Source: a virus (taxonomy: Duplodnaviria; Caudoviricetes). From it: 35,678 nt of DNA. The stretch is taken from IMG/VR virus record IMGVR_UViG_3300023283_000077, positions 1 through 35,678 of that record, one strand, 5' to 3'. The translations under genes and the position numbers were made by a program. Below are positions 1,178-13,702 of the stretch, in pieces (the stretch's first letter is position 1; each line of letters starts with the position of its first letter). The notes under the pieces are model-generated. The model ran no database searches. It was not told where the DNA came from and saw nothing but the letters and a program-made list of their open reading frames with translations.

Positions 1178-1380
1178 CCGCCCTTGATCTTGTCCTTGGC
1201 TTTGACCCGGCCAATCACGACAACAACAGCGCCAATGATCCCGACCAGGCCGGTCGTGATCTGCTCCTGGCCCTCCGGGCCAATCTCCAATCCGAATGTG
1301 GCGGCCACGGCGGCGGCACCGGTGACCAGGGCGCCGATGATGGTCTTGCTCTGATACCAGGGTTTGCTTTGCTCATTCAC
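1174..1380 (-). CDS. Holin (2 TM)
   Basis: 68 aa, KPWYQSKTIIG N-terminus, two TM helices, basic C-terminus, follows endolysin. Confidence 0.75.
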   Translation of the reverse strand: MNEQSKPWYQSKTIIGALVTGAAAVAATFGLEIGPEGQEQITTGLVGIIGAVVVVIGRVKAKDKIKGG

Positions 1381-1691
1381 GGGCTCTTCCTCCGGGGCTG
1401 GTACTCAATGTGTAGGTGGGTGTCCTCGAGGATCACGTCGTAGTCGATTCCCAGCGACTCGCTGATCAGCTGCGCCAGGGGCTCCCGATCTTCTGCTGAC
1501 ACGTGCCGCGTGCGGAGGTCAACGGCACTGCCGGCATAATGGAGGCTCGTCGGGCTATGCCTGCCGTCGAGCAGCGATGTAATCACGCAGTCGTACCCGC
1601 CCCGCCGGTAGGCGGACTCGCTCACAATGACAGCCAGCAGCAGCTCAGGCCGTATACCCTGGCAGTCCACGCCGTCTTTGATCTGCAGCAT
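1377..1691 (-). CDS. Endolysin, peptidase M15-like Zn peptidase
   Basis: SLHYAGSAVD and HLHIE motifs; GAGG RBS before ATG 1691; first gene after late promoter. Confidence 0.8.
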   Translation of the reverse strand: MLQIKDGVDCQGIRPELLLAVIVSESAYRRGGYDCVITSLLDGRHSPTSLHYAGSAVDLRTRHVSAEDREPLAQLISESLGIDYDVILEDTHLHIEYQPRRKSP

Positions 1692-1701
1692 CAGGTGCCT
1701 C

Positions 1702-1728
1702 AAACAAAAAAGCCCCGCAGAACGGGGC
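1702..1728 (-). terminator. Intrinsic terminator 2 of late leader
   Basis: GCCCCG-TTCTG-CGGGGC then TTTTTTGTTT on minus strand. Confidence 0.8.
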
Positions 1729-1753
1729 AAGGGCTCGACTATCTGGAGGCCAG

Positions 1754-1837: not shown

Positions 1838-1866
1838 ACTCTAAAACATGGCGGCCACCTATGCAA
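1838..1866 (-). promoter_or_regulatory. Late promoter (pR'-like)
   Basis: TTGCAT-N17-TAGAGT upstream of tandem terminators and lysis genes; -10-like TAGTCT just downstream of the predicted start. Confidence 0.7.
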
Positions 1867-1897
1867 GTATTTTTGGGTATCCGGATTAAGTGGAAGA

Positions 1898-2428
1898 TCA
1901 TGCGTTTCTTCTGTACTTTGTGCGATAGCGCTGCATGGGCACTGGGTCGCCCTGTTTGAGGGCCCGGTAGGCTACCTGGTATTCGCGTCTACGATCAGCA
2001 TCCCTGCCATCGGCTCGCCTAGCCCCTGGCGGCAGCTTGTGGTGGTCTCCGGGGCGTTGCTCAGTTATTAGCTTGCGGTGGCGAGTGTCATCGACGAGCG
2101 CTTTTCGTCGCCGCCCGCCTCGCCGCGCAGCTTCTACAGCAGACGGGAGATGGTCATAGGTCAGGCGTCCAGAGGTGATCTGGTCCTGCATCTGCAAGGA
2201 CAGCGCTTCGCGTGTGGCGGTCCCGGAAAGAGGGTAGCGCTTCGGTATGCCCCACTTTTCTCGGTAATCGTCATGCGTCATGCCATGGGTGCGAGGGAGG
2301 TGGGTGGCCAGACCGCGAAACCAGCGCCCACATTCCAAGCACTGTATGCGCGGGCCGCCAACGTAGGCGTCCAGTTCGTCGAGCGTCTGGAATGGCCTGT
2401 CACGCACGTCAGAAACCCAGCGACTCAA
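1898..2428 (-). CDS. Ros/MucR-family zinc-finger protein with basic C-terminal extension
   Basis: IQCLECGRWFRGLATHLPRTHGMTHDDYREKWGIPKRYPL = C-x2-C-x9-H-x4-H plus Y-R-x-K-W-x-x-P-x-x-Y-P; start TTG 2428 or GTG 2407. Confidence 0.8.
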   Translation of the reverse strand: MSRWVSDVRDRPFQTLDELDAYVGGPRIQCLECGRWFRGLATHLPRTHGMTHDDYREKWGIPKRYPLSGTATREALSLQMQDQITSGRLTYDHLPSAVEAARRGGRRRKALVDDTRHRKLITEQRPGDHHKLPPGARRADGRDADRRREYQVAYRALKQGDPVPMQRYRTKYRRNA

Positions 2429-2762
2429 TCATGGCCACCCGCTCGGCAAGGCTCATCTCCCGCACGCGGGCGGCGAGGTCACGCAGCGCCGAGTCATCGC
2501 CGGTGTCGCCGTCTTCCAGCTCGGCATCCAGGTGCTTGATCAGCAGCGGTTCTAGTAGTGATCCTGACAAAGTGGTCAAAAGTAGCTGTCGCTCAGCTTC
2601 TGTCAGATCGGGAGGCTGACTGCAAGCCAGCTCATAGCGCTCGGCAATGGTGGCCAGGCGTTGGCTTAGGGTATGGCGTTCGCCCAGGTTATCGACGACC
2701 CGCTCCAGGGGCGGGCTGAGGTAGATGCTAGGTCTACGCTTGTTACGCGACTTGTCGGTCAT
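2409..2762 (-). CDS. Putative ribbon-helix-helix-like regulator (117 aa)
   Basis: GGAG RBS before ATG 2762; N-terminal KRRPSIYLS strand followed by two predicted helices; helical acidic C-terminal part. Confidence 0.55.
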   Translation of the reverse strand: MTDKSRNKRRPSIYLSPPLERVVDNLGERHTLSQRLATIAERYELACSQPPDLTEAERQLLLTTLSGSLLEPLLIKHLDAELEDGDTGDDSALRDLAARVREMSLAERVAMIESLGF

Positions 2763-2773
2763 GACGGATCTCC

Positions 2774-2802
2774 AAAGCAAAGCCCCGACGCGAGGCCGGG
2801 GC
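2774..2802 (-). terminator. Intrinsic terminator/attenuator inside cassette operon
   Basis: GCCCCGGC-CTCGC-GTCGGGGC then TTTGCTTT, between gene 1 and gene 2. Confidence 0.7.
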
Positions 2803-2810
2803 AGCTTGAG

Positions 2811-3005
2811 TTAGCTGTTGCAGTAGTCACCCCAGAGGCGATTCATGATCTCGTCAGCTTCGGCATCGCTGGAGGTCCATACGCCATCGACATAGTTGCC
2901 AGTGCTGTCGCCGACCTTGGCGCTGTGGCCTTGCTCCTCCAGCCAGGTAGCGAATTCTTCGGCTTCCGGGGTATCGACGGCGATGATGATTTCGTAAGTG
3001 CTCAT
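2811..3005 (-). CDS. Small highly acidic protein (64 aa), unknown function
   Basis: AGGAG RBS; 14 D/E vs 2 K/R; first gene behind its own promoter. Confidence 0.8.
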   Translation of the reverse strand: MSTYEIIIAVDTPEAEEFATWLEEQGHSAKVGDSTGNYVDGVWTSSDAEADEIMNRLWGDYCNS

Positions 3006-3079
3006 GGTAGGTCTCCTAGTTCTGCGCCGGTGTGGCCAGTTCTTCGGTTGATGTGGGCTTCGTTTGCCTCACATGATTA

Positions 3080-3108
3080 AAGGTAGCACCCCAGGTGCTA
3101 CCTTGCAA
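3080..3108 (-). promoter_or_regulatory. Cassette sigma70 promoter with overlapping palindromic operator
   Basis: TTGCAA-N17-TACCTT; perfect inverted repeat AAGGTAGCACC-CCA-GGTGCTACCTT at 3080-3104. Confidence 0.8.
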
Positions 3109-3204
3109 GGATTATTTCCAACCAGACAATCCGGAGAGGGTTTTGGTTGCCCCAACCTACTGATTTGGGGAGATCAACCAGCTATTCCGGATACCCGTAT
3201 TTTT

Positions 3205-3546
3205 TCACCCGGCCTGATCAAGCCCATGCAGCAGGCCTTCCACATAGGCCTCTGCCTGGCACAGCAAGTGCGAGCTGGTGTGGCGGTTCATCGCCAGCGC
3301 CCGCCCGATCTGCGAGATACTCAGGCCCTGGATGTAGTAGGCCATGATCACCGCCGCCTGACGTTGGTCTCGCACCCTGAGCTGGGCCACGGCATAGTCC
3401 ACCCGGCCTGCCACCTCATCGGGCACATTCGGCATGCCAATGGTTGAGCCAAGTCCAAGCTGCTGCCGGCTGTAGCCGAGCGTCGTAATGAGATCCCCCC
3501 TGGCCCATCTTCCCCAATCCTCCAGCATGTCCTGTGTTGTCTTCAT
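3205..3546 (-). CDS. Q: Late antitermination protein Q-like
   Basis: MLEDWGRWAR N-terminus, C-terminal HTH and AEAYVEG; position between replication and lysis. Confidence 0.8.
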   Translation of the reverse strand: MKTTQDMLEDWGRWARGDLITTLGYSRQQLGLGSTIGMPNVPDEVAGRVDYAVAQLRVRDQRQAAVIMAYYIQGLSISQIGRALAMNRHTSSHLLCQAEAYVEGLLHGLDQAG

Positions 3547-3579: not shown

Positions 3580-3832
3580 CAAGGGTCTTTTCTAAACCCT
3601 TGCCGCTTTCAGCCCTTGTCCCCCAACGGTTGGCAAGGGTGGCAAGGGTGGCAAGGGTTGTATCCTCGCGCACGTGGGAAATATTTTTGTCTGGCCTGAG
3701 AGTACGCCCGTAAATACACACGCCCGTGCGCGCGCGATAGACCCTTGCCACCCTTGCCACCCTTGCCGGCCCTTGTGTCCCAAGGGCTGGACCCGGCAAG
3801 GGTCTGTTGCCAACCCTTGCCATGCCCTTGCC
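3580..3832. repeat. Iteron array, putative replication origin
   Basis: 14 CAAGGG/CCCTTG cores; (GGCAAGGGT)x3 at 3632-3658 and (ACCCTTGCC)x3 at 3741-3767 in inverted arrangement around a spacer containing AAATATTTTT; directly downstream of primase-helicase. Confidence 0.8.
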
Positions 3833-7239: not shown

Positions 7240-7923
7240 ATGGATGAAATCAAAGACCGCGTGCAGAATCTCCGAAGACAGCTTGGACTAACCCAAGTCG
7301 AGCTGGCCAAGCTCGTTGGCGTCAGCCAGCAAAGTATCCAGAAGCTGGAGGCCGGATTCGTCACACGGCCAAAGTTTCTACTGGAACTGGCCACCGCGCT
7401 TGGCGTGGAGCCCGAGTGGCTGGTTAAGGGCGACAGGCAGGCCTTTGCCCCTCGTGAAATTGGCTATGGAATATCGCAAAACCAACTGCCTCAGGAGCCA
7501 GGCGCCGAGTTTGCGCCTGTGCAGCGCGTACGCTTACAGCTCAGTGCCGGCGTGACCGGCTACTCAGTCGATGCGGAGGGCGAGAACGGCAAGCCCATCT
7601 TCTTCCGCCGCGATTTCCTCGCCAGCAAGGGCTGGCGACCTGACCAGCTACTGGCGCTCCGCGTCAATGGCGATAGTATGGAGCCCGGGCTGTGGGACAA
7701 GGACATGGTGGTGATACACACGGCTGACACGGAACCGAGGGACGGGGAGGTGTTCGCGGTCAACTATGAAGGTGAGGCCACCATTAAGCGACTCAAACGG
7801 GATGCCGGCGAGTGGTGGCTGACCTCTGACAACCCTGACAAGACACGCTACCCGGACAAGCGGTGCCACGAGGGGGCCATAATAATAGGCAAAGCGGTTT
7901 ACAAGCAGAGCGAGCGGATATAG
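7240..7923 (+). CDS. cI: CI repressor (434-like HTH + S24 peptidase)
   Basis: [37 protein letters not shown]; Ala-Gly site (LSAG), catalytic GDSM and TIKRL; ATG 7240 preferred over TTG 7222. Confidence 0.93.
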   Translation: [227 protein letters not shown]

Positions 7924-7983
7924 CTCGGAAATTAGCGGTTTCGCGCGCGGCCAGCGAACAGGTAATAAATTGCGTAGAAAAAT

Positions 7984-8025
7984 ATACCCTGAATTGTTGA
8001 CGCAAAACAATACAGGTTGTATGTT
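7984..8025 (+). promoter_or_regulatory. PL promoter with OL operators
   Basis: TTGACG(7997)-N17-TATGTT(8020); operators ATACCCTGAATTGT (7984-7997) and ACAATACAGGTTGT (8007-8020). Confidence 0.8.
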
Positions 8026-8051
8026 GTGGGTGTTGCGAAGGAGCCACACTC

Positions 8052-8297
8052 ATGACCAAAATCACCATCGAGCTGCCCGACGACGCCCCCATGACCGTAC
8101 TGCGCGACCTGGCGGACGCCGTTGACTGCGACCTCAAGCTGCGCCCGGATGGCACCTACGTTGCCAGGCCGCGCATGACCCGCGTCGCTGCTTCCAATGT
8201 TGCGACGTTCCCCAACCAGGTCGGCGCCCGGATGATGCACCGCGCCCGCGCCGCCGACCGCTGCCCGGGGCCTCGCGACCCCAAGGGGGCAGCATGA
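8052..8297 (+). CDS. Hypothetical early protein
   Basis: AAGGAG RBS; first gene after PL; ATGA coupling to next gene. Confidence 0.75.
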   Translation: MTKITIELPDDAPMTVLRDLADAVDCDLKLRPDGTYVARPRMTRVAASNVATFPNQVGARMMHRARAADRCPGPRDPKGAA

Positions 8298-8611
8298 CCC
8301 AGGCCCAATTCACCCCGCGGACCTCCGTGAGCCAGCAGCACCGGGTAACCCAGGCTTTTGGCTGCCTCTACAACGGCGTGGTAATCGACGCGGACATCAC
8401 CCGCCGTGAACCGGACCTGATGACGGAGATCATGGGCGACGGAGCCCAGACCGTGGAGCTGTGCGAAGCAACGCCGGTGCTGGAGCGAGTGAAGGCGCTT
8501 TGTTTCGTCCTCGAAGACCTGGCCGCCATGGCCGGCGAGGCCAGTGTGAATGAGGCGGCGCTGCGCAACGCCCGGCAGCTGATCGAAGACACGCGGGAGA
8601 GGTTCCGTTAA
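8294..8611 (+). CDS. Hypothetical early protein
   Basis: Translationally coupled on both sides. Confidence 0.7.
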   Translation: MTQAQFTPRTSVSQQHRVTQAFGCLYNGVVIDADITRREPDLMTEIMGDGAQTVELCEATPVLERVKALCFVLEDLAAMAGEASVNEAALRNARQLIEDTRERFR

Positions 8612-8868
8612 TGCAGACGTTCTCCGTGGGCGAGGCGGCCCGGATGCTCAACATGGGTCCCAAGAGCCTATTCCGGACCCTGCGGGACAACCGCATCCTG
8701 GACGCAAATAACCTCCCGTACCGTCACTACGTGGACGCAGGCTACTTCCGCGTCAAGCTTAGCGTCGCGCCTACGGAAATTGGCGACCGGGCCTATGGAC
8801 AGCCCAGGGTCACGCCTCGTGGCCTGCAGTATCTGGAGAGGCGCTTTGCCGGGGGCGCTGCCTCGTAA
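8611..8868 (+). CDS. Stand-alone antirepressor KilA-C (ANT) domain protein
   Basis: SVGEAARML-MGPKSLFRTLRD-IL-NLPYRHYVDAGYF-QPRVTPRGLQYL pattern. Confidence 0.8.
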   Translation: MQTFSVGEAARMLNMGPKSLFRTLRDNRILDANNLPYRHYVDAGYFRVKLSVAPTEIGDRAYGQPRVTPRGLQYLERRFAGGAAS

Positions 8869-8908
8869 ATGCTCAGCTACAACAAACCGACCGAATGAGG
8901 GCAGGATC

Positions 8909-9280
8909 ATGACTGACACAAAACACCGCGACACCGACGTGCCGCAATTGCTCGACGACCTGGACGGCGGAGTGTTCCAGCAAAAGCTGGCCCGCGCATT
9001 CAGCGACGTGGCGGCCGGAGTGATCGACCAGGACAAGAAGGGCCGCGTAACGCTCTCGTTTGATTTTGAGCGCATCGGAACATCTCACCAGGTCAAGCTC
9101 GTGCATAGGCTTGGCTACACCATGCCAACAATGCGCGGCAAGCTGACGGAGGAAGACACCACCGAGACGCCATTGCACGTCAACACCGGCGGCCGCCTGT
9201 CGCTCTTCCCCGAAAACCAGGGCCAGCTTTTTTCCCGCCAGGGCGAGCCGGCCAAATCTACCCAGGAGAATGACCAATGA
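8909..9280 (+). CDS. YfdP-like protein (partner of DUF2303)
   Basis: TDVPQLLDDLDGGVFQQKL-KKGRVTL-GKLTEEDTTETPLHV pattern; directly upstream of the DUF2303-like gene. Confidence 0.75.
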   Translation: MTDTKHRDTDVPQLLDDLDGGVFQQKLARAFSDVAAGVIDQDKKGRVTLSFDFERIGTSHQVKLVHRLGYTMPTMRGKLTEEDTTETPLHVNTGGRLSLFPENQGQLFSRQGEPAKSTQENDQ

Positions 9281-10104
9281 ACAAAGAGTTTCTCACTGAT
9301 CTCCGGTCCGTGCTGGCATCCAGTGCTGCTAGGGCAGACGTCCGCGACCTGACGGGCATGCAGGTCGCGTTACCTGAATCTGTGCGCGTGGTAGACCTCG
9401 AGCGGTTTTGCGATTCGCGCCGCCGCTACAGGGGCGCCATGCGTACCTCGTCGATCACCGACTATGTGGCCTACAGCCGGGTCGCCGCGGCCGAGTCCAA
9501 AGAGGAGTGCCTCTGCTTCATCGACGCTGACGACATGTCGGCCACCACCTTTTTCAACCTGGGCGACCAATCGGCGCCCGGGCACGGCGATTACCAGAGC
9601 TACCTGAGACTCAAAGAAACCGCGCCGCTACTGGAGCTGAAGGCGCGGCACGGGCGCCGTCTTACCCAGACTGAGCTTGCGGAATGGATTGAAGACTGGG
9701 CCGCCCACATCGAAGCGATAGACGAGGATGGCGCCATCATCCCGCTAGGCTGCGCTGCTGCAGCTGTCCGGCGCATCACGATTGGCGCACAGGCTGAGCA
9801 GACCACCGAAGAGAGCAGTTTCGGGGCCCGCCGCACGTCCATGACGGAGGTCGAGGCCAAGAACCGGCACCAATTCCCGGCGTTCATCGACTTCAGCTGT
9901 GAGCCCTACCAGGGTTTGCCACAGCGGAGTTTCCGCGCACGGTTGGGCCTCATTACCGGCGATTCCCCTAGCATCTCGCTGCGCGTTGTCCGCATGGAGC
10001 AACATCAGGAGGAGATGGCTAAGGAGCTGGTGGAAGAACTGGAGAAGGGATTCGGAGGCTCAGCCGTCAGCTGCCATGTCGGCAGCTTCGCGGTGGGTGG
10101 TTAA
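9277..10104 (+). CDS. DUF2303 / YfdQ-family protein
   Basis: DLERF-RRRYRG-TSSITDY, FNLG-PGHGD, QTELAEWIEDW, F-CEPYQGL. Confidence 0.85.
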   Translation: MNKEFLTDLRSVLASSAARADVRDLTGMQVALPESVRVVDLERFCDSRRRYRGAMRTSSITDYVAYSRVAAAESKEECLCFIDADDMSATTFFNLGDQSAPGHGDYQSYLRLKETAPLLELKARHGRRLTQTELAEWIEDWAAHIEAIDEDGAIIPLGCAAAAVRRITIGAQAEQTTEESSFGARRTSMTEVEAKNRHQFPAFIDFSCEPYQGLPQRSFRARLGLITGDSPSISLRVVRMEQHQEEMAKELVEELEKGFGGSAVSCHVGSFAVGG

Positions 10105-10107
10105 GCC

Positions 10108-10608
10108 ATGGCCCGCCGCAAAAGCCACAACCCAACCAAACGCATGCAGCGTTTTTTCAGCTGCCTGACGCTCTGGAGCTGGGAAAGCGATGTAGATCCC
10201 GTCTCGAGTCTGCGCAACGCCCGGGCAACTGCCCGAGTGAACGGCGTCTGGCAGGATCTGGGTCCGTCCCACGTGAGCATGCTGGTCAACACCCCGCTCA
10301 ACTGGCGCCTGTGCTGCCGGGCCCTGTGCCGTGGCGCTGGTGAGGAGTGGGTGGAGCTGGAGATGACCGAGGCCAAGCAGGTCGCGCTCAACGACCTGGA
10401 GGAGCTGTATCGCATGCTCCGCACCCAGGTCACCGAGCACATCCGGCAGGACATGGTGGCGGATATCGGCTGGATAGCCACCACCTTCCTCAACCGCCCG
10501 GACGACGACCGCTGGTACCTGCACGGGCTCGGCCACTGGACCGAGGAGCGCCAGGCCCTGTGGCTCAAGTACCAGGACCGAGTGATCGAGGGAGTGAAGG
10601 TGGCATGA
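10108..10608 (+). CDS. Hypothetical phage protein
   Basis: In-operon ORF, coupled to next gene. Confidence 0.75.
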   Translation: MARRKSHNPTKRMQRFFSCLTLWSWESDVDPVSSLRNARATARVNGVWQDLGPSHVSMLVNTPLNWRLCCRALCRGAGEEWVELEMTEAKQVALNDLEELYRMLRTQVTEHIRQDMVADIGWIATTFLNRPDDDRWYLHGLGHWTEERQALWLKYQDRVIEGVKVA

Positions 10609-10790
10609 CCCACCGCCTGCGCCAGCTCACCCGGGCCTATCGACGCGCCAAGCGCTTGCTGGGCCGCGCCAATAAGGGGGCGGCGCTGCTGGCCCCGGCT
10701 ATTCGCTGGTGCAGCCAGTTAAGGCGGATGCTGGCCCAGGGAGCCGAGCGCGTGCATGCAGCCCTCTATAACCGGAGACCACAGCAATGA
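10605..10790 (+). CDS. Hypothetical basic protein (61 aa)
   Basis: ATGA overlaps at both ends. Confidence 0.6.
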   Translation: MTHRLRQLTRAYRRAKRLLGRANKGAALLAPAIRWCSQLRRMLAQGAERVHAALYNRRPQQ

Positions 10791-11338
10791 CTGACGACAC
10801 CCCGGAAATTCGCGAAATCATCCTGGCCGCTGCACACACCCCTTGCTCGACCAAGGCGATACAGGCACAAGTCTGCGACATCATCCCCGAGCGCTCCGAC
10901 CTGTCGCGCATCCTGGGCAACATGAAGCGTGACGGGGAGCTTAAGCGCTACGGCAACGGCTATTGGGCGCCTACGGAGCTGGCCGGGTCCGGACGCACCG
11001 GCAAAACCCGCAACCCAAACATCGACCCGGACGATCCACGCCTCGCCAGGGCCAGGCCTGAGGGCCAACCCGACCCACTCCCGGCCATCGAAGCCCTCGA
11101 GCGGCGTCTGACTGGCACCGTGGAGCGGCTTGACCTCAAGCGCCAGACGCTGGAGCGGTTGGCGCAGATACTGGATCCGAGCATTGGGGAGGTGCTGGAG
11201 GAGATACGGCAGGATTTGGAGGGCGCTGCATGTGCGCAATACAACAAGCCAATGCTGAATACACCGAATACGACAATGGACCTGACCATGACTGGCGCAG
11301 CATCGGAGACGGCGGCGAAGATAAGCCCGACGCCATAA
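10787..11338 (+). CDS. Putative winged-helix protein
   Basis: GGAG RBS; SDLSRILGNMKRDGELKRYGNGYW wHTH-like pattern. Confidence 0.65.
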   Translation: MTDDTPEIREIILAAAHTPCSTKAIQAQVCDIIPERSDLSRILGNMKRDGELKRYGNGYWAPTELAGSGRTGKTRNPNIDPDDPRLARARPEGQPDPLPAIEALERRLTGTVERLDLKRQTLERLAQILDPSIGEVLEEIRQDLEGAACAQYNKPMLNTPNTTMDLTMTGAASETAAKISPTP

Positions 11339-11593
11339 TTCTGCTGCGCCGACGGAGAACAAGACTGGCTTGAGCTATCCACAACCTGGAGGCCGTTTGT
11401 GCAGGTTGGCCCGCAAGGGCGCACAAGCTGGAGCACAAAGCGGCTAGCCCAGGCTATAGATCAGTTAGTGGATATGGGCCTGATCGAGGACGTAGACGGC
11501 GCAGATTGTAAGTGGCGGCTAACCCAGGAAGGGCAAAAGTGGACGTTCGAACCCGAGCTATCCGAGAGAGGGCTGAAAGGGAGACTGAAATGA
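11230..11593 (+). pseudogene. Possible frameshifted winged-helix gene
   Basis: ATG 11230 with GGAGG RBS reads to TGA 11373; the +1 frame from about 11354 continues GEQDWLEL...RLAQAIDQLVDMGLIE...KWRLT to 11593. Confidence 0.4.
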
Positions 11594-12327
11594 CCAGATG
11601 CACAAACGACGCAGATTACGGCCTTGTTGAGGTGGGCTCAATGTACCAGTGGGCGTACTGGCATTCCGACAGGTGGCTGATCCAGGCCCAGCTGGAGGCC
11701 ATCTACCAACTCTCAAAGCGGTGTGACTACCTGGAGGCACTGGATCGCGTCCAGGGTCTCAACTCGCCACTGCACATCCCACGTTGCGACGAGTGCGGCG
11801 AGGAGCTGGATTACCTGCCGTGGCATTTTTCGGAGATCCGCAACAGGCTGCAATACAGGGATCTGCGCGCTTGCGATGACTGCTGGCCCCGCGTAAAGCG
11901 GCGGATGCTCACGCTCCTAAAAACCCGAAACATCGGGGGAATCGTCGCTGAAGCCAAGGCCGAGGCCCTGGAAGAAGCCGCCCGGCTGATCGAAGCTGCG
12001 CCACAGAGGACGCCCTACGGTCGGATTGACATGCAAGCCGTCGCAAAGATTCACCGCGAGCGAGCGCGTGAATACAGGGAAGGCCAGGAAGGGCCGTTGA
12101 TGATGCCTGTTAGGGTCACCCAGGAGATGATAGAGGCCGGGGCACAGAGGCTGGTCCGCTGGGATGACGGCTGCAAATGGCCTGACAGTTGGGATGCCCT
12201 GGACGTAGCAGCTGCCAGGAGTGACGCAGAGCGAGTTATCCGGTCGGCGTTGGCAGTGTCCGGCGAGTTATCGCCCGAAAAACACGCCAACACGACGGTG
12301 GACGACCCCGTTCACGGCGAAAATTAG
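11590..12327 (+). CDS. Hypothetical mosaic early protein with CxxC-CxxC motif
   Basis: ATGA coupling at 11590; CDECG...CDDC; AEAKAEALEEAA segment. Confidence 0.65.
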   Translation: MTRCTNDADYGLVEVGSMYQWAYWHSDRWLIQAQLEAIYQLSKRCDYLEALDRVQGLNSPLHIPRCDECGEELDYLPWHFSEIRNRLQYRDLRACDDCWPRVKRRMLTLLKTRNIGGIVAEAKAEALEEAARLIEAAPQRTPYGRIDMQAVAKIHRERAREYREGQEGPLMMPVRVTQEMIEAGAQRLVRWDDGCKWPDSWDALDVAAARSDAERVIRSALAVSGELSPEKHANTTVDDPVHGEN

Positions 12328-12385
12328 CCGGTAGGATGAATACCGCGTTTTCGCTTGCGAGGTAGGAATGACGTACCAAATGAAC

Positions 12386-13060
12386 TCAGAGATCGCCAAC
12401 CAGATAGTCGATGAATCGCTGCTCCGCGATCAGGGAAACCGCGTGCCCCTGCTCCCGGAGCTCCACAGCCTTTTCGATTTTTCGCCCGAACGTGGAGTGG
12501 ATCCAGTCCCGGCTGCCGATTTCGCCGATCACGAGGAAATTGGTTTTTTTCGAGGGATTGGGCTTAACGAAGCCTCCCCGCAGGGTGATGCGCTCCTCAA
12601 CCTGCCGCCGGCTGCCCCAGGCAAACTGGCCAGTGAGGCAGAACCCGACGCCGTGGAAGGCGACCCGCGGCGGGGGATCGTCGAGGGGCAAGGTACTGCT
12701 GGCGCTCCTGCCAGTGGCGCCGACTTTGGGGGCTCCAGTGATATCCATCAGCAAATCCAGGAGCTCCTTCTCCTCGTCGTCGTCCAGGATACCGTCCTCC
12801 AACATGGCCTGTATCCTGGGGTAGATCACCTTTGCCGGCCATTTGCTGGCTGCGTGCCGGTTGGACTCCAGCCAGTCCAGGAGAAACTGGGCCTCCGACT
12901 GGTTGACCGCGCCGTCAGACAGCACGCCCTTGCACAGCCCGATGATCTCATCCACCTGCCGGTCCGCCACATGGGACCAGGCCAGACGTGGGTCTACGGG
13001 CTGCCCGTGTTCGTTAAGCGGTGTGCTGCCACGCGAGGTGGCGCGGGGGAAGATGGCCAT
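12386..13060 (-). CDS. TerB-like helical domain + BRCT domain protein (accessory gene)
   Basis: DGAVNQSE...DGILDDDE metal-binding-like motifs; BRCT FCLTG-F-R-GG-SKKTNFLVIG-GRKIEKA; start 13060 or 13150. Confidence 0.8.
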   Translation of the reverse strand: MAIFPRATSRGSTPLNEHGQPVDPRLAWSHVADRQVDEIIGLCKGVLSDGAVNQSEAQFLLDWLESNRHAASKWPAKVIYPRIQAMLEDGILDDDEEKELLDLLMDITGAPKVGATGRSASSTLPLDDPPPRVAFHGVGFCLTGQFAWGSRRQVEERITLRGGFVKPNPSKKTNFLVIGEIGSRDWIHSTFGRKIEKAVELREQGHAVSLIAEQRFIDYLVGDL

Positions 13061-13237
13061 GGCTACTGTGCTTCTGTATCTGGACGATCCGTAGACAAAA
13101 GCGTTATGAGTGCGGGTTAAGCTACCCTGGTCTATTAATTTCAACGACATGCGGCGCCGCCCTCGTCAGCTATGCGCTATAATGACCAACTGTGACCAGC
13201 TATTGGTCACCAAATGCCCGCCACATTTGGAGGTGAT

Positions 13238-13702
13238 ATGATCCGCGTTTTCCTAATCTTGCTCCTAGCGCCAGGCGTCGTAGCTGCAGATATCTACAAG
13301 TGCGGGGTGGACGGCAAAGTGGAGTTCTCGGACTCGCCCTGCGGGGACTCGGCAGAGCGGGTTGAGGTGCGTGATAACCGCATCGGCGGCTCGCTATCGG
13401 AGGGGCTGACTGGCCGATCGTTTGCCGCGGAGGAGGGCGGCGCCGACCAGGCGGAGGACGATGAGGGTGGTTACGACTGCCCACACATATCAAGTACCCG
13501 GCTGCGCCAGCTCAAGATCCGCGAAGAGGTGGCACCGGGGATGAGCCCGGGCGACGTACTGGACACCTGGGGCCAGCCGAACCAGATCACGACCGAGCAC
13601 GAGCTCGTGCGCTGGACATTCCAGGATTTCTACGGGGAGCGTCACATCTACTTTTACGATGACTGCATGGTATCCCGGGATTCGCACATTGACCTGAGAT
13701 AG
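13238..13702 (+). CDS. Exported DUF4124-like protein with C-terminal SmpA/BamE-like domain (accessory gene)
   Basis: GGAGGTG RBS; signal peptide; IYKC-DGKVEFSDSPC; GMSPGDV-WGQP. Confidence 0.75.
   Translation: MIRVFLILLLAPGVVAADIYKCGVDGKVEFSDSPCGDSAERVEVRDNRIGGSLSEGLTGRSFAAEEGGADQAEDDEGGYDCPHISSTRLRQLKIREEVAPGMSPGDVLDTWGQPNQITTEHELVRWTFQDFYGERHIYFYDDCMVSRDSHIDLR

What the first reader, a model, noticed from the sequence alone, without database searches (positions are those of the whole stretch)
1898..3108. Cassette cargo has the layout of an autoregulated anti-defence (acr-aca-like) operon
Seen: sigma70-like promoter (TTGCAA-N17-TACCTT) whose spacer and -10 are covered by a perfect 11-bp-arm palindrome. 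Then a hairpin at the predicted +1, a strong RBS, a tiny acidic gene, a terminator, an RHH-like gene and a MucR-like gene. Knowledge: anti-CRISPR operons typically pair a strong promoter bearing inverted repeats with small effector genes followed by their own repressor, giving a burst on DNA entry and then shut-off. Inference: a mobile counter-defence module with a non-HTH repressor; the internal terminator would make effector far more abundant than regulators.
Basis: partly seen in the sequence, partly recalled or inferred. Interest (0 to 1): 0.85.

Follow-up and report, generated by a model that had tools for sequence, protein, structure and literature searches.

The report
IS-borne AcrIE10-like anti-CRISPR operon
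A 1.3-kb piece bounded by insertion-sequence ends sits in a phage genome and carries a relative of the anti-CRISPR repressor AcrIE10 behind a small swappable gene that likely disarms host defence, so this repressor branch would point to about ten untested candidate inhibitors.

Summary
(1) The 117-aa gene is an AcrIE10 homologue (36 of 111 residues identical; profile E 8e-30; TM 0.73). AcrIE10 is a published RHH Aca that represses its own operon and binds Cas7, so a non-HTH Aca is not new. (2) The MucR-like gene is only a Ros zinc finger and follows the regulator in 3 of 14 related loci; it is not the conserved repressor. (3) The cassette is a transposase-less ISL3 element (IRs 1875-1899 and 3172-3196, 8-bp target duplication). 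It recurs with seven different flanks, and in three studies runs on into an ISL3 transposase start. In 14 Halomonas-type loci the promoter, palindrome and leader stay, while the upstream gene is swapped among 10 families, mostly acidic. One is weakly AcrIC4-like; one locus abuts an acrIF6-aca2 operon. The operator changes together with the DNA-reading strand. Cas7 binding is predicted (0.87 against 0.01), possibly from likeness to solved 8JI9. The 64-aa protein has no known relative; its target is untested. Verdict: new variant of a known kind.

The parts
3197..3204 (.). 8-bp target-site duplication, copy next to the Q stop codon
   Evidence: identical to 1867-1874
3172..3196 (-). ISL3-type terminal inverted repeat, promoter side
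   Evidence: 20 of 25 match to the other end; near-identical to ends of Halomonas plasmid elements L038 and L040, the latter holding an ISL3 transposase; contigs of other studies stop at 3196-3203
3103..3108 (-). putative -35 (TTGCAA)
   Evidence: sequence; register kept in relatives; not called by the consensus scan
3080..3104 (.). operator palindrome, 11-bp arms, 3-bp centre; includes the putative -10 TACCTT (3085-3080)
   Evidence: same position in 12 of 12 loci with this DNA-reading strand, two-sided arm changes in 4, nine different centres
3022..3073 (-). conserved 5' leader with two predicted hairpins (3052-3073, 3022-3039)
   Evidence: no Rfam family
3012..3017 (-). ribosome-binding site
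2811..3005 (-). 64-aa acidic cargo protein, candidate anti-defence effector (untested)
   Evidence: 42 homologues; first gene behind a promoter-like stretch in several other phage contigs; no family, PDB or fold match
2772..2802 (-). terminator-like stem-loop with interrupted U-run, likely leaky
   Evidence: a similar GC stem lies between cargo and regulator in 13 of 14 Halomonas-type loci, by eye
2409..2762 (-). AcrIE10-family RHH repressor (Aca), predicted Cas7 binder
1898..2407 (-). 169-aa basic protein with a Ros/MucR-type zinc finger; optional passenger
1875..1899 (+). ISL3-type terminal inverted repeat, distal end, overlapping the zinc-finger gene's stop codon
1867..1874 (.). 8-bp target-site duplication, lysis-side copy
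1838..1866 (-). putative phage late promoter (TTGCAT-N17-TAGAGT), left intact by the insertion
   Evidence: sequence; position between Q-like gene (3205-3546) and holin/spanin genes; role inferred from lambdoid layout (own knowledge)

Best explanation
This is a transposase-less ISL3 element inserted between the Q-like gene and the lysis genes of a lambdoid phage, carrying a likely self-repressing anti-CRISPR operon whose regulator is an AcrIE10 homologue. Shown by sequence and comparison: the ends, the duplication, the homology, the swappable cargo slot, and the operator that changes with the regulator's DNA-reading strand. Inferred mechanism: on entry into a naive cell the free promoter gives a burst of the 64-aa protein; read-through of the leaky terminator makes less of the 117-aa protein; two RHH dimers bind the two arms over the spacer and -10 and shut the promoter. 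As shown for AcrIE10, its C-terminal helices would also bind free type I-E Cas7, which both hinders Cascade assembly and lifts repression when Cas7 is abundant. The 64-aa protein would be the main inhibitor, in the slot that AcrIE9 fills in Klebsiella. My odds per step: 117-aa protein represses this palindrome 0.9; it binds Cas7 0.6; 64-aa protein is an Acr 0.45, another anti-defence protein 0.3, neither 0.25; mobility by ISL3 transposase in trans 0.85.
For: Regulator: profile hit to AcrIE10 E 8e-30; single-sequence E 7e-7; model pLDDT 88 matches 9M71, 9M7T and 8JI9 at TM 0.72-0.73 with nothing else under E 3. DNA-reading R7/N8/S10/F11 align to R9/R10/S12/I13. Of 8 Cas7 contacts, 5 are identical, including essential E78 = E81, present in 45 of 45 close homologues. 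Predicted complex of the dimer with a Halomonadaceae Cas7: 0.87 against best control 0.01, runs agree in 94% of contacts, partner pLDDT 81 or more, E81 in the interface; the mark was reached by 116 of 157 solved and 2 of 215 mismatched pairs. Operator: 12 of 12 loci with the [RK]R[PT]SIY strand have the ACC-N3-GGT palindrome; 3 of 4 with the RNPSF strand have the Klebsiella-type TGTA(T/C)GACA-N2-TGTCATACA and the fourth keeps one arm. Cargo: 17 ORFs, 10 families, 14 loci; 14 of 17 have pI under 5. One family matches AcrIC4 (E 0.004-0.009). L006 has an acrIF6-like gene (E 2.7e-4) and aca2 (E 2e-24) directly downstream. L067 stacks three cargo genes. Mobility. A Cas7 of family PF09344 is in 80 of 342 genomes of the host family.
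Against: The 64-aa protein matches no known Acr by sequence or fold. Only 1 of 10 cargo families has a known-Acr hit, and it is weak; only 4 of 10 were searched against the PDB. The complex score may come from memory of solved 8JI9. E81 is kept in only 69 of 135 wider family members; N63, Y74 and R116 differ. The operator centre is 3 bp, whereas AcrIE10 needs 2 bp (0, 1, 4, 8, 16 failed; 3 is not listed). Only 1 of 5 carrier genomes has a PF09344 hit, no more than the family rate. Of 5 further family members in 400 class genomes, three lie beside redox gene clusters with no small cargo (L073, L075, L076), so the wider family is not always an Aca. The strand-operator correlation may rest on one evolutionary event. 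No target duplication was seen in L028, whose far end is degenerate. No transposase lies in the window.
Confidence: 0.72

Rival explanations
1. The operon is autoregulated counter-defence, but the 64-aa protein acts on a non-CRISPR system (for example as an acidic DNA mimic against restriction), and the 117-aa protein is a plain repressor that no longer binds Cas7.
For: Net charge -12 on 64 aa. No Acr match. Cas7 contacts are variable across the wide family. No enrichment of Cas7 among carriers.
Against: E81 invariant in 45 of 45 close homologues. Predicted Cas7 complex. AcrIC4-like cargo and an acrIF6-aca2 neighbour.
Confidence: 0.17
2. It is a lysogen moron unrelated to counter-defence (superinfection exclusion or host fitness) that uses an AcrIE10-like repressor.
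For: It sits in the Q-lysis slot in several loci (L003, L006, L011, L031). Some family members occur outside mobile elements.
Against: Tight self-repression suits an entry burst, not steady lysogen expression (own knowledge). The cargo is mostly tiny and acidic, and Acr-like neighbours occur.
Confidence: 0.07
3. It is a toxin-antitoxin pair (64-aa toxin, RHH antitoxin) that stabilises the element.
For: Two small genes with an RHH protein and a promoter palindrome is a common TA layout (own knowledge).
Against: The same regulator pairs with 10 unrelated cargo families. 64-aa homologues occur in phage contigs where no such regulator was seen among the listed ORFs (5 of 5 loci). A terminator favours the cargo over the regulator. 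No TA family hit.
Confidence: 0.04

Closest known systems
acrIE9.2-acrIE10 operon of Klebsiella plasmids (PMC13530269, PMC11317147; PDB 8JI9, 9M71, 9M7T)
   Same: Homologous RHH plus helical-bundle regulator second in the operon; inverted repeat over -35/-10; small gene first; key Cas7 residue kept.
   Different: 32% identity; different DNA-reading strand and operator (3-bp centre); cargo is not AcrIE9 and is freely swapped, whereas those papers describe AcrIE9-AcrIE10 as a fixed unit; prophage and IS setting in Halomonas-type hosts; internal terminator; optional zinc-finger gene.
Classical acr-aca operons (Aca1, Aca2)
   Same: Strong promoter with inverted repeat, variable small acidic genes, terminal repressor; an acrIF6-like/aca2 operon directly follows one relative (L006).
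   Different: Repressor is RHH, not HTH, and is predicted to sense Cas7.
ISL3 elements with passenger genes (ISPpu12-like; ISPpu12a named as a 3372-bp ISL3 element with CzcD in PMC4447125, passages seen)
   Same: Near-identical terminal repeats and an 8-bp duplication, as in L040; the transposase start seen after the cargo in three studies matches the L040 transposase in 7 of 9 residues.
   Different: Passengers are a counter-defence-type operon, not metal transporters; the window's copy lacks the transposase.
Ros/MucR regulators
   Same: C-X2-C-X9-H-X4-H zinc finger, Pfam PF05443 E 2e-14.
   Different: The N-terminal half of the family profile is missing; long basic C-terminal extension.

Membership tests
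AcrIE10 family | Sequence and fold homology over the full length | tested here: met
   (36 of 111 identical, TM 0.73)
AcrIE10 family | N-terminal RHH strand with base-reading residues | tested here: met
   R7/N8/S10/F11 align to R9/R10/S12/I13; residues 1-10 are low-confidence in the monomer model
AcrIE10 family | Cas7-contact residues, above all E78 | tested here: met
   5 of 8 identical, E81 in 45 of 45 close homologues
AcrIE10 family | Physical binding of Cas7 and inhibition of type I-E | tested here: inconclusive
   model supports binding (0.87 vs 0.01) but a like complex is solved; no assay
AcrIE10 family | Same operator with 2-bp spacer | tested here: not met
   different arms, 3-bp centre: a specificity variant
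AcrIE10 family | Paired with AcrIE9 | tested here: not met
   no BLAST link between any Halomonas-type cargo and the Klebsiella or Edwardsiella cargo
acr-aca operon | Promoter inverted repeat conserved with the regulator | tested here: met
acr-aca operon | Variable small upstream genes | tested here: met
   10 families in 14 loci
acr-aca operon | Known Acr among the regulated genes | tested here: inconclusive
   one weak AcrIC4 match; none for the window's own cargo
acr-aca operon | Repressor binds and represses the promoter | not testable with these tools
   needs EMSA and reporter
ISL3 non-autonomous element | Terminal IRs of ISL3 type | tested here: met
ISL3 non-autonomous element | 8-bp target duplication | tested here: met
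   window and L040; not seen in L028
ISL3 non-autonomous element | Same element at unrelated sites | tested here: met
   seven different flanks at the 3196 end counting the window
ISL3 non-autonomous element | Complete autonomous parent between both IRs | tested here: inconclusive
   only 30-nt loose ends into a transposase start in X2, X5, X7 and a remnant in L028
Ros/MucR | Zinc finger | tested here: met
Ros/MucR | N-terminal part of the family profile (oligomerisation region, recalled) | tested here: not met
   match covers profile 64-112 of 123 only

The most novel reading that the evidence does not exclude
An ISL3 insertion sequence has captured a complete Cas7-sensing anti-CRISPR operon and hands it between phages, plasmids and chromosomes, with its transposase directly behind the operon's last gene, so that Cas7 levels and DNA entry would switch on both immunity blocking and transposition; the 64-aa protein and nine other cargo families are new Acrs.
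Probability: 0.25. Interest if true: 0.82.

Novelty: new variant of a known kind. Interest (0 to 1): 0.62.

Why it matters
The AcrIE10 papers treat the protein as a fixed partner of AcrIE9 on enterobacterial plasmids and call for new RHH repressors as landmarks. This branch behaves as a general Aca with a swappable slot, giving about ten candidate inhibitor families to test, and a natural swap of DNA-reading domain plus operator. An acr operon carried as IS passenger cargo would be a route for counter-defence to move between elements; my searches for it in print (listings only) showed no such report, which is not proof of absence.

Tried and rejected
MucR-like gene as the repressor: rejected (3 of 14 loci; truncated or absent in X13, X17). 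Leader as a known RNA: no Rfam family at gathering level. Pfam, PHROGs and NCBIfam named no cargo, but they also missed AcrIE9.2, AcrIE10 and the AcrIF6-like control, so these blanks say little. Fold searches of the 64-aa model (pLDDT 81, 6-sequence alignment): best Foldseek E 0.55, best Z 4.5, viral E 0.37: no fold assigned. Atlas hits at 0.78 or less, unnamed. PDB searches of two 81-aa cargo families found nothing. The 64-aa protein was not found in plasmids, phages or 400 class genomes. First operator pattern had the wrong centre length and found nothing; the corrected one gave 13 loci, 5 already known and 8 chance matches. IR pattern in viral contigs gave 26 loci, none with the cassette. 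No related phage with an empty site was found. No RNA holder listed; X13 is only a guess at RNA. X20 covers the genes but not the IRs. L033 was left out of the 14 loci because its upstream part is replaced; duplicate contigs of one locus were counted once. Earlier findings: none. Supplements of the AcrIE10 papers were not read and may list such homologues.

Full report
Setting. The window is a whole 35,678-base virus record with lambdoid genes: CI/Cro, primase, Q-like antiterminator at 3205-3546, holin and spanin, capsid, portal, terminase. The host is not given; the named close relatives of the cassette are Halomonadaceae. The feature lies on the minus strand between the Q stop and a putative late promoter at 1838-1866 (role from own knowledge of lambda).

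Observation. Every listed part is present at the stated place. The palindrome at 3080-3104 is the only perfect one with arms of 9 bp or more in the window, against 0.25 with arms of 11 or more per random sequence. The promoter is only 7 of 12 to consensus and was not called. The terminator and leader folds are modest (z -1.88 and -2.64; 1 of 13 pairs with a two-sided change).

The regulator. The 117-aa protein has 51 near homologues and 253 cluster representatives. Its profile hits AcrIE10 at E 8e-30, next hit 7e-4; the protein alone hits at E 7e-7, and its model matches 9M71, 9M7T and 8JI9. I read the abstract, results parts 1-2 of 4 and discussion of PMC13530269, the abstract and two results sections of PMC11317147, and passages of 10.1101/2025.05.07.652737. 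They show that AcrIE10 represses the acrIE9.2-acrIE10 promoter through an RHH dimer of dimers on an inverted repeat with a 2-bp spacer, binds Cas7 through E78, and is released by excess Cas7; AcrIE9.2 is the main inhibitor. Here the base-reading strand differs (RRPSI against RNPSF), 5 of 8 Cas7 contacts are identical, and E81 is kept in 45 of 45 close but only 69 of 135 wide homologues. A predicted complex with Cas7 from G003 passed (0.87, best control 0.01; 116 of 157 solved and 2 of 215 mismatched pairs reach the mark), which may reflect likeness to 8JI9.

Operator and cargo. After merging duplicates there are 14 Halomonas-type loci with an intact upstream region, the window included. Twelve have the [RK]R[PT]SIY strand and all 12 have the ACC-N3-GGT palindrome behind TTG: 8 perfect over 10 bp, 4 with paired changes in both arms, 9 different centres. 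Two have the RNPSF strand and carry the Klebsiella-type operator instead. One of these, P0037, has an AcrIE10-like N-terminus on a C-terminus nearly identical to ours, so DNA-reading domain and operator appear to have been swapped together. These loci are related, so this may be one event. The cargo slot holds 17 ORFs in 10 families, 14 with pI under 5. Four families were searched against the PDB; one matches AcrIC4 weakly, three match nothing. L006 is followed at once by an acrIF6-like gene and aca2. The window's 64-aa protein has 42 homologues; in 5 other viral loci it lies among small genes, often first behind a promoter-like stretch, without this regulator in the ORF lists. No fold could be assigned.

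Against a simple reading: three of five further family members in 400 class genomes lie beside redox clusters without cargo, and carriers are not enriched for Cas7 (1 of 5, against 80 of 342; that search rang in only 1 of 14 control genomes, so it may miss some).

The zinc-finger gene matches only the finger of PF05443, follows the regulator in 3 of 14 loci, and is replaced by other genes elsewhere. It is an optional passenger; its role is open.

Mobility. The cassette is bounded by 25-bp repeats (20 of 25 alike) and an exact 8-bp duplication. The ends match Halomonas plasmid elements, one of them a full ISL3 element with transposase, metal-efflux passengers and its own 8-bp duplication (L040). 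Of 8 runs laid, one may be the window's source and one lacks the ends; the other six, from five studies, hold the cassette at 90-99% identity and leave it at 3196-3203 into six flanks unlike the window's. In three (X2, X5, X7; three studies) the contig continues past the zinc-finger stop into 30 bases that read as an ISL3 transposase start, by eye. L028 has a transposase remnant (E 9e-9). The window has no transposase. Most other loci have the operon without IRs, so the IS likely captured a pre-existing phage operon; the direction is inferred.

Mechanism and verdict. Most likely: an entry burst of the 64-aa effector, shut-off by the AcrIE10-like dimer of dimers, release by Cas7, and movement by ISL3 transposase in trans. 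The architecture is known since the AcrIE10 work; new here are the different operator specificity, the freely swapped cargo, and carriage inside an IS. Searches for ISL3 or IS-passenger acr operons and for MucR with anti-CRISPR (listings only, plus passages of PMC4447125) showed no such report. New variant of a known kind; interest 0.62.

Noticed in passing
L006:5400-6213: Separate acrIF6-like plus aca2 operon with its own palindromic promoter directly behind the AcrIE10-like operon, between Q and the endolysin.
   Followed up: yes
L073, L075, L076 (around position 1500): AcrIE10-family genes beside iron-sulfur or cytochrome c redox clusters with no small cargo: the family may also serve as ordinary chromosomal regulators.
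   Followed up: partly
L036:1547-2200 and L037:1666-2345: Streptococcus and Paenibacillus phages carry distant family members behind a small acidic gene; the Streptococcus promoter has a partial palindrome like ours.
   Followed up: partly
L109:2950-3350: 64-aa homologue followed by a short CxxC basic ORF and preceded by a promoter palindrome: a possible further small Aca-like regulator.
   Followed up: no
L028:4637-5481: Two tandem paralogous 103-107-aa genes, each behind a near-identical promoter region, right after the element.
   Followed up: no
window 3596-3803: 79-bp inverted arms made of 9-bp repeats just after the primase gene, a likely replication origin.
   Followed up: no
window 1377-1730: Endolysin-position gene has only a weak Hedgehog-type (LAS peptidase-like) match, E 0.0015.
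   Followed up: no
window 7900-13700: No integrase was named among the 30 ORFs scanned; not all ORFs were scanned.
   Followed up: no
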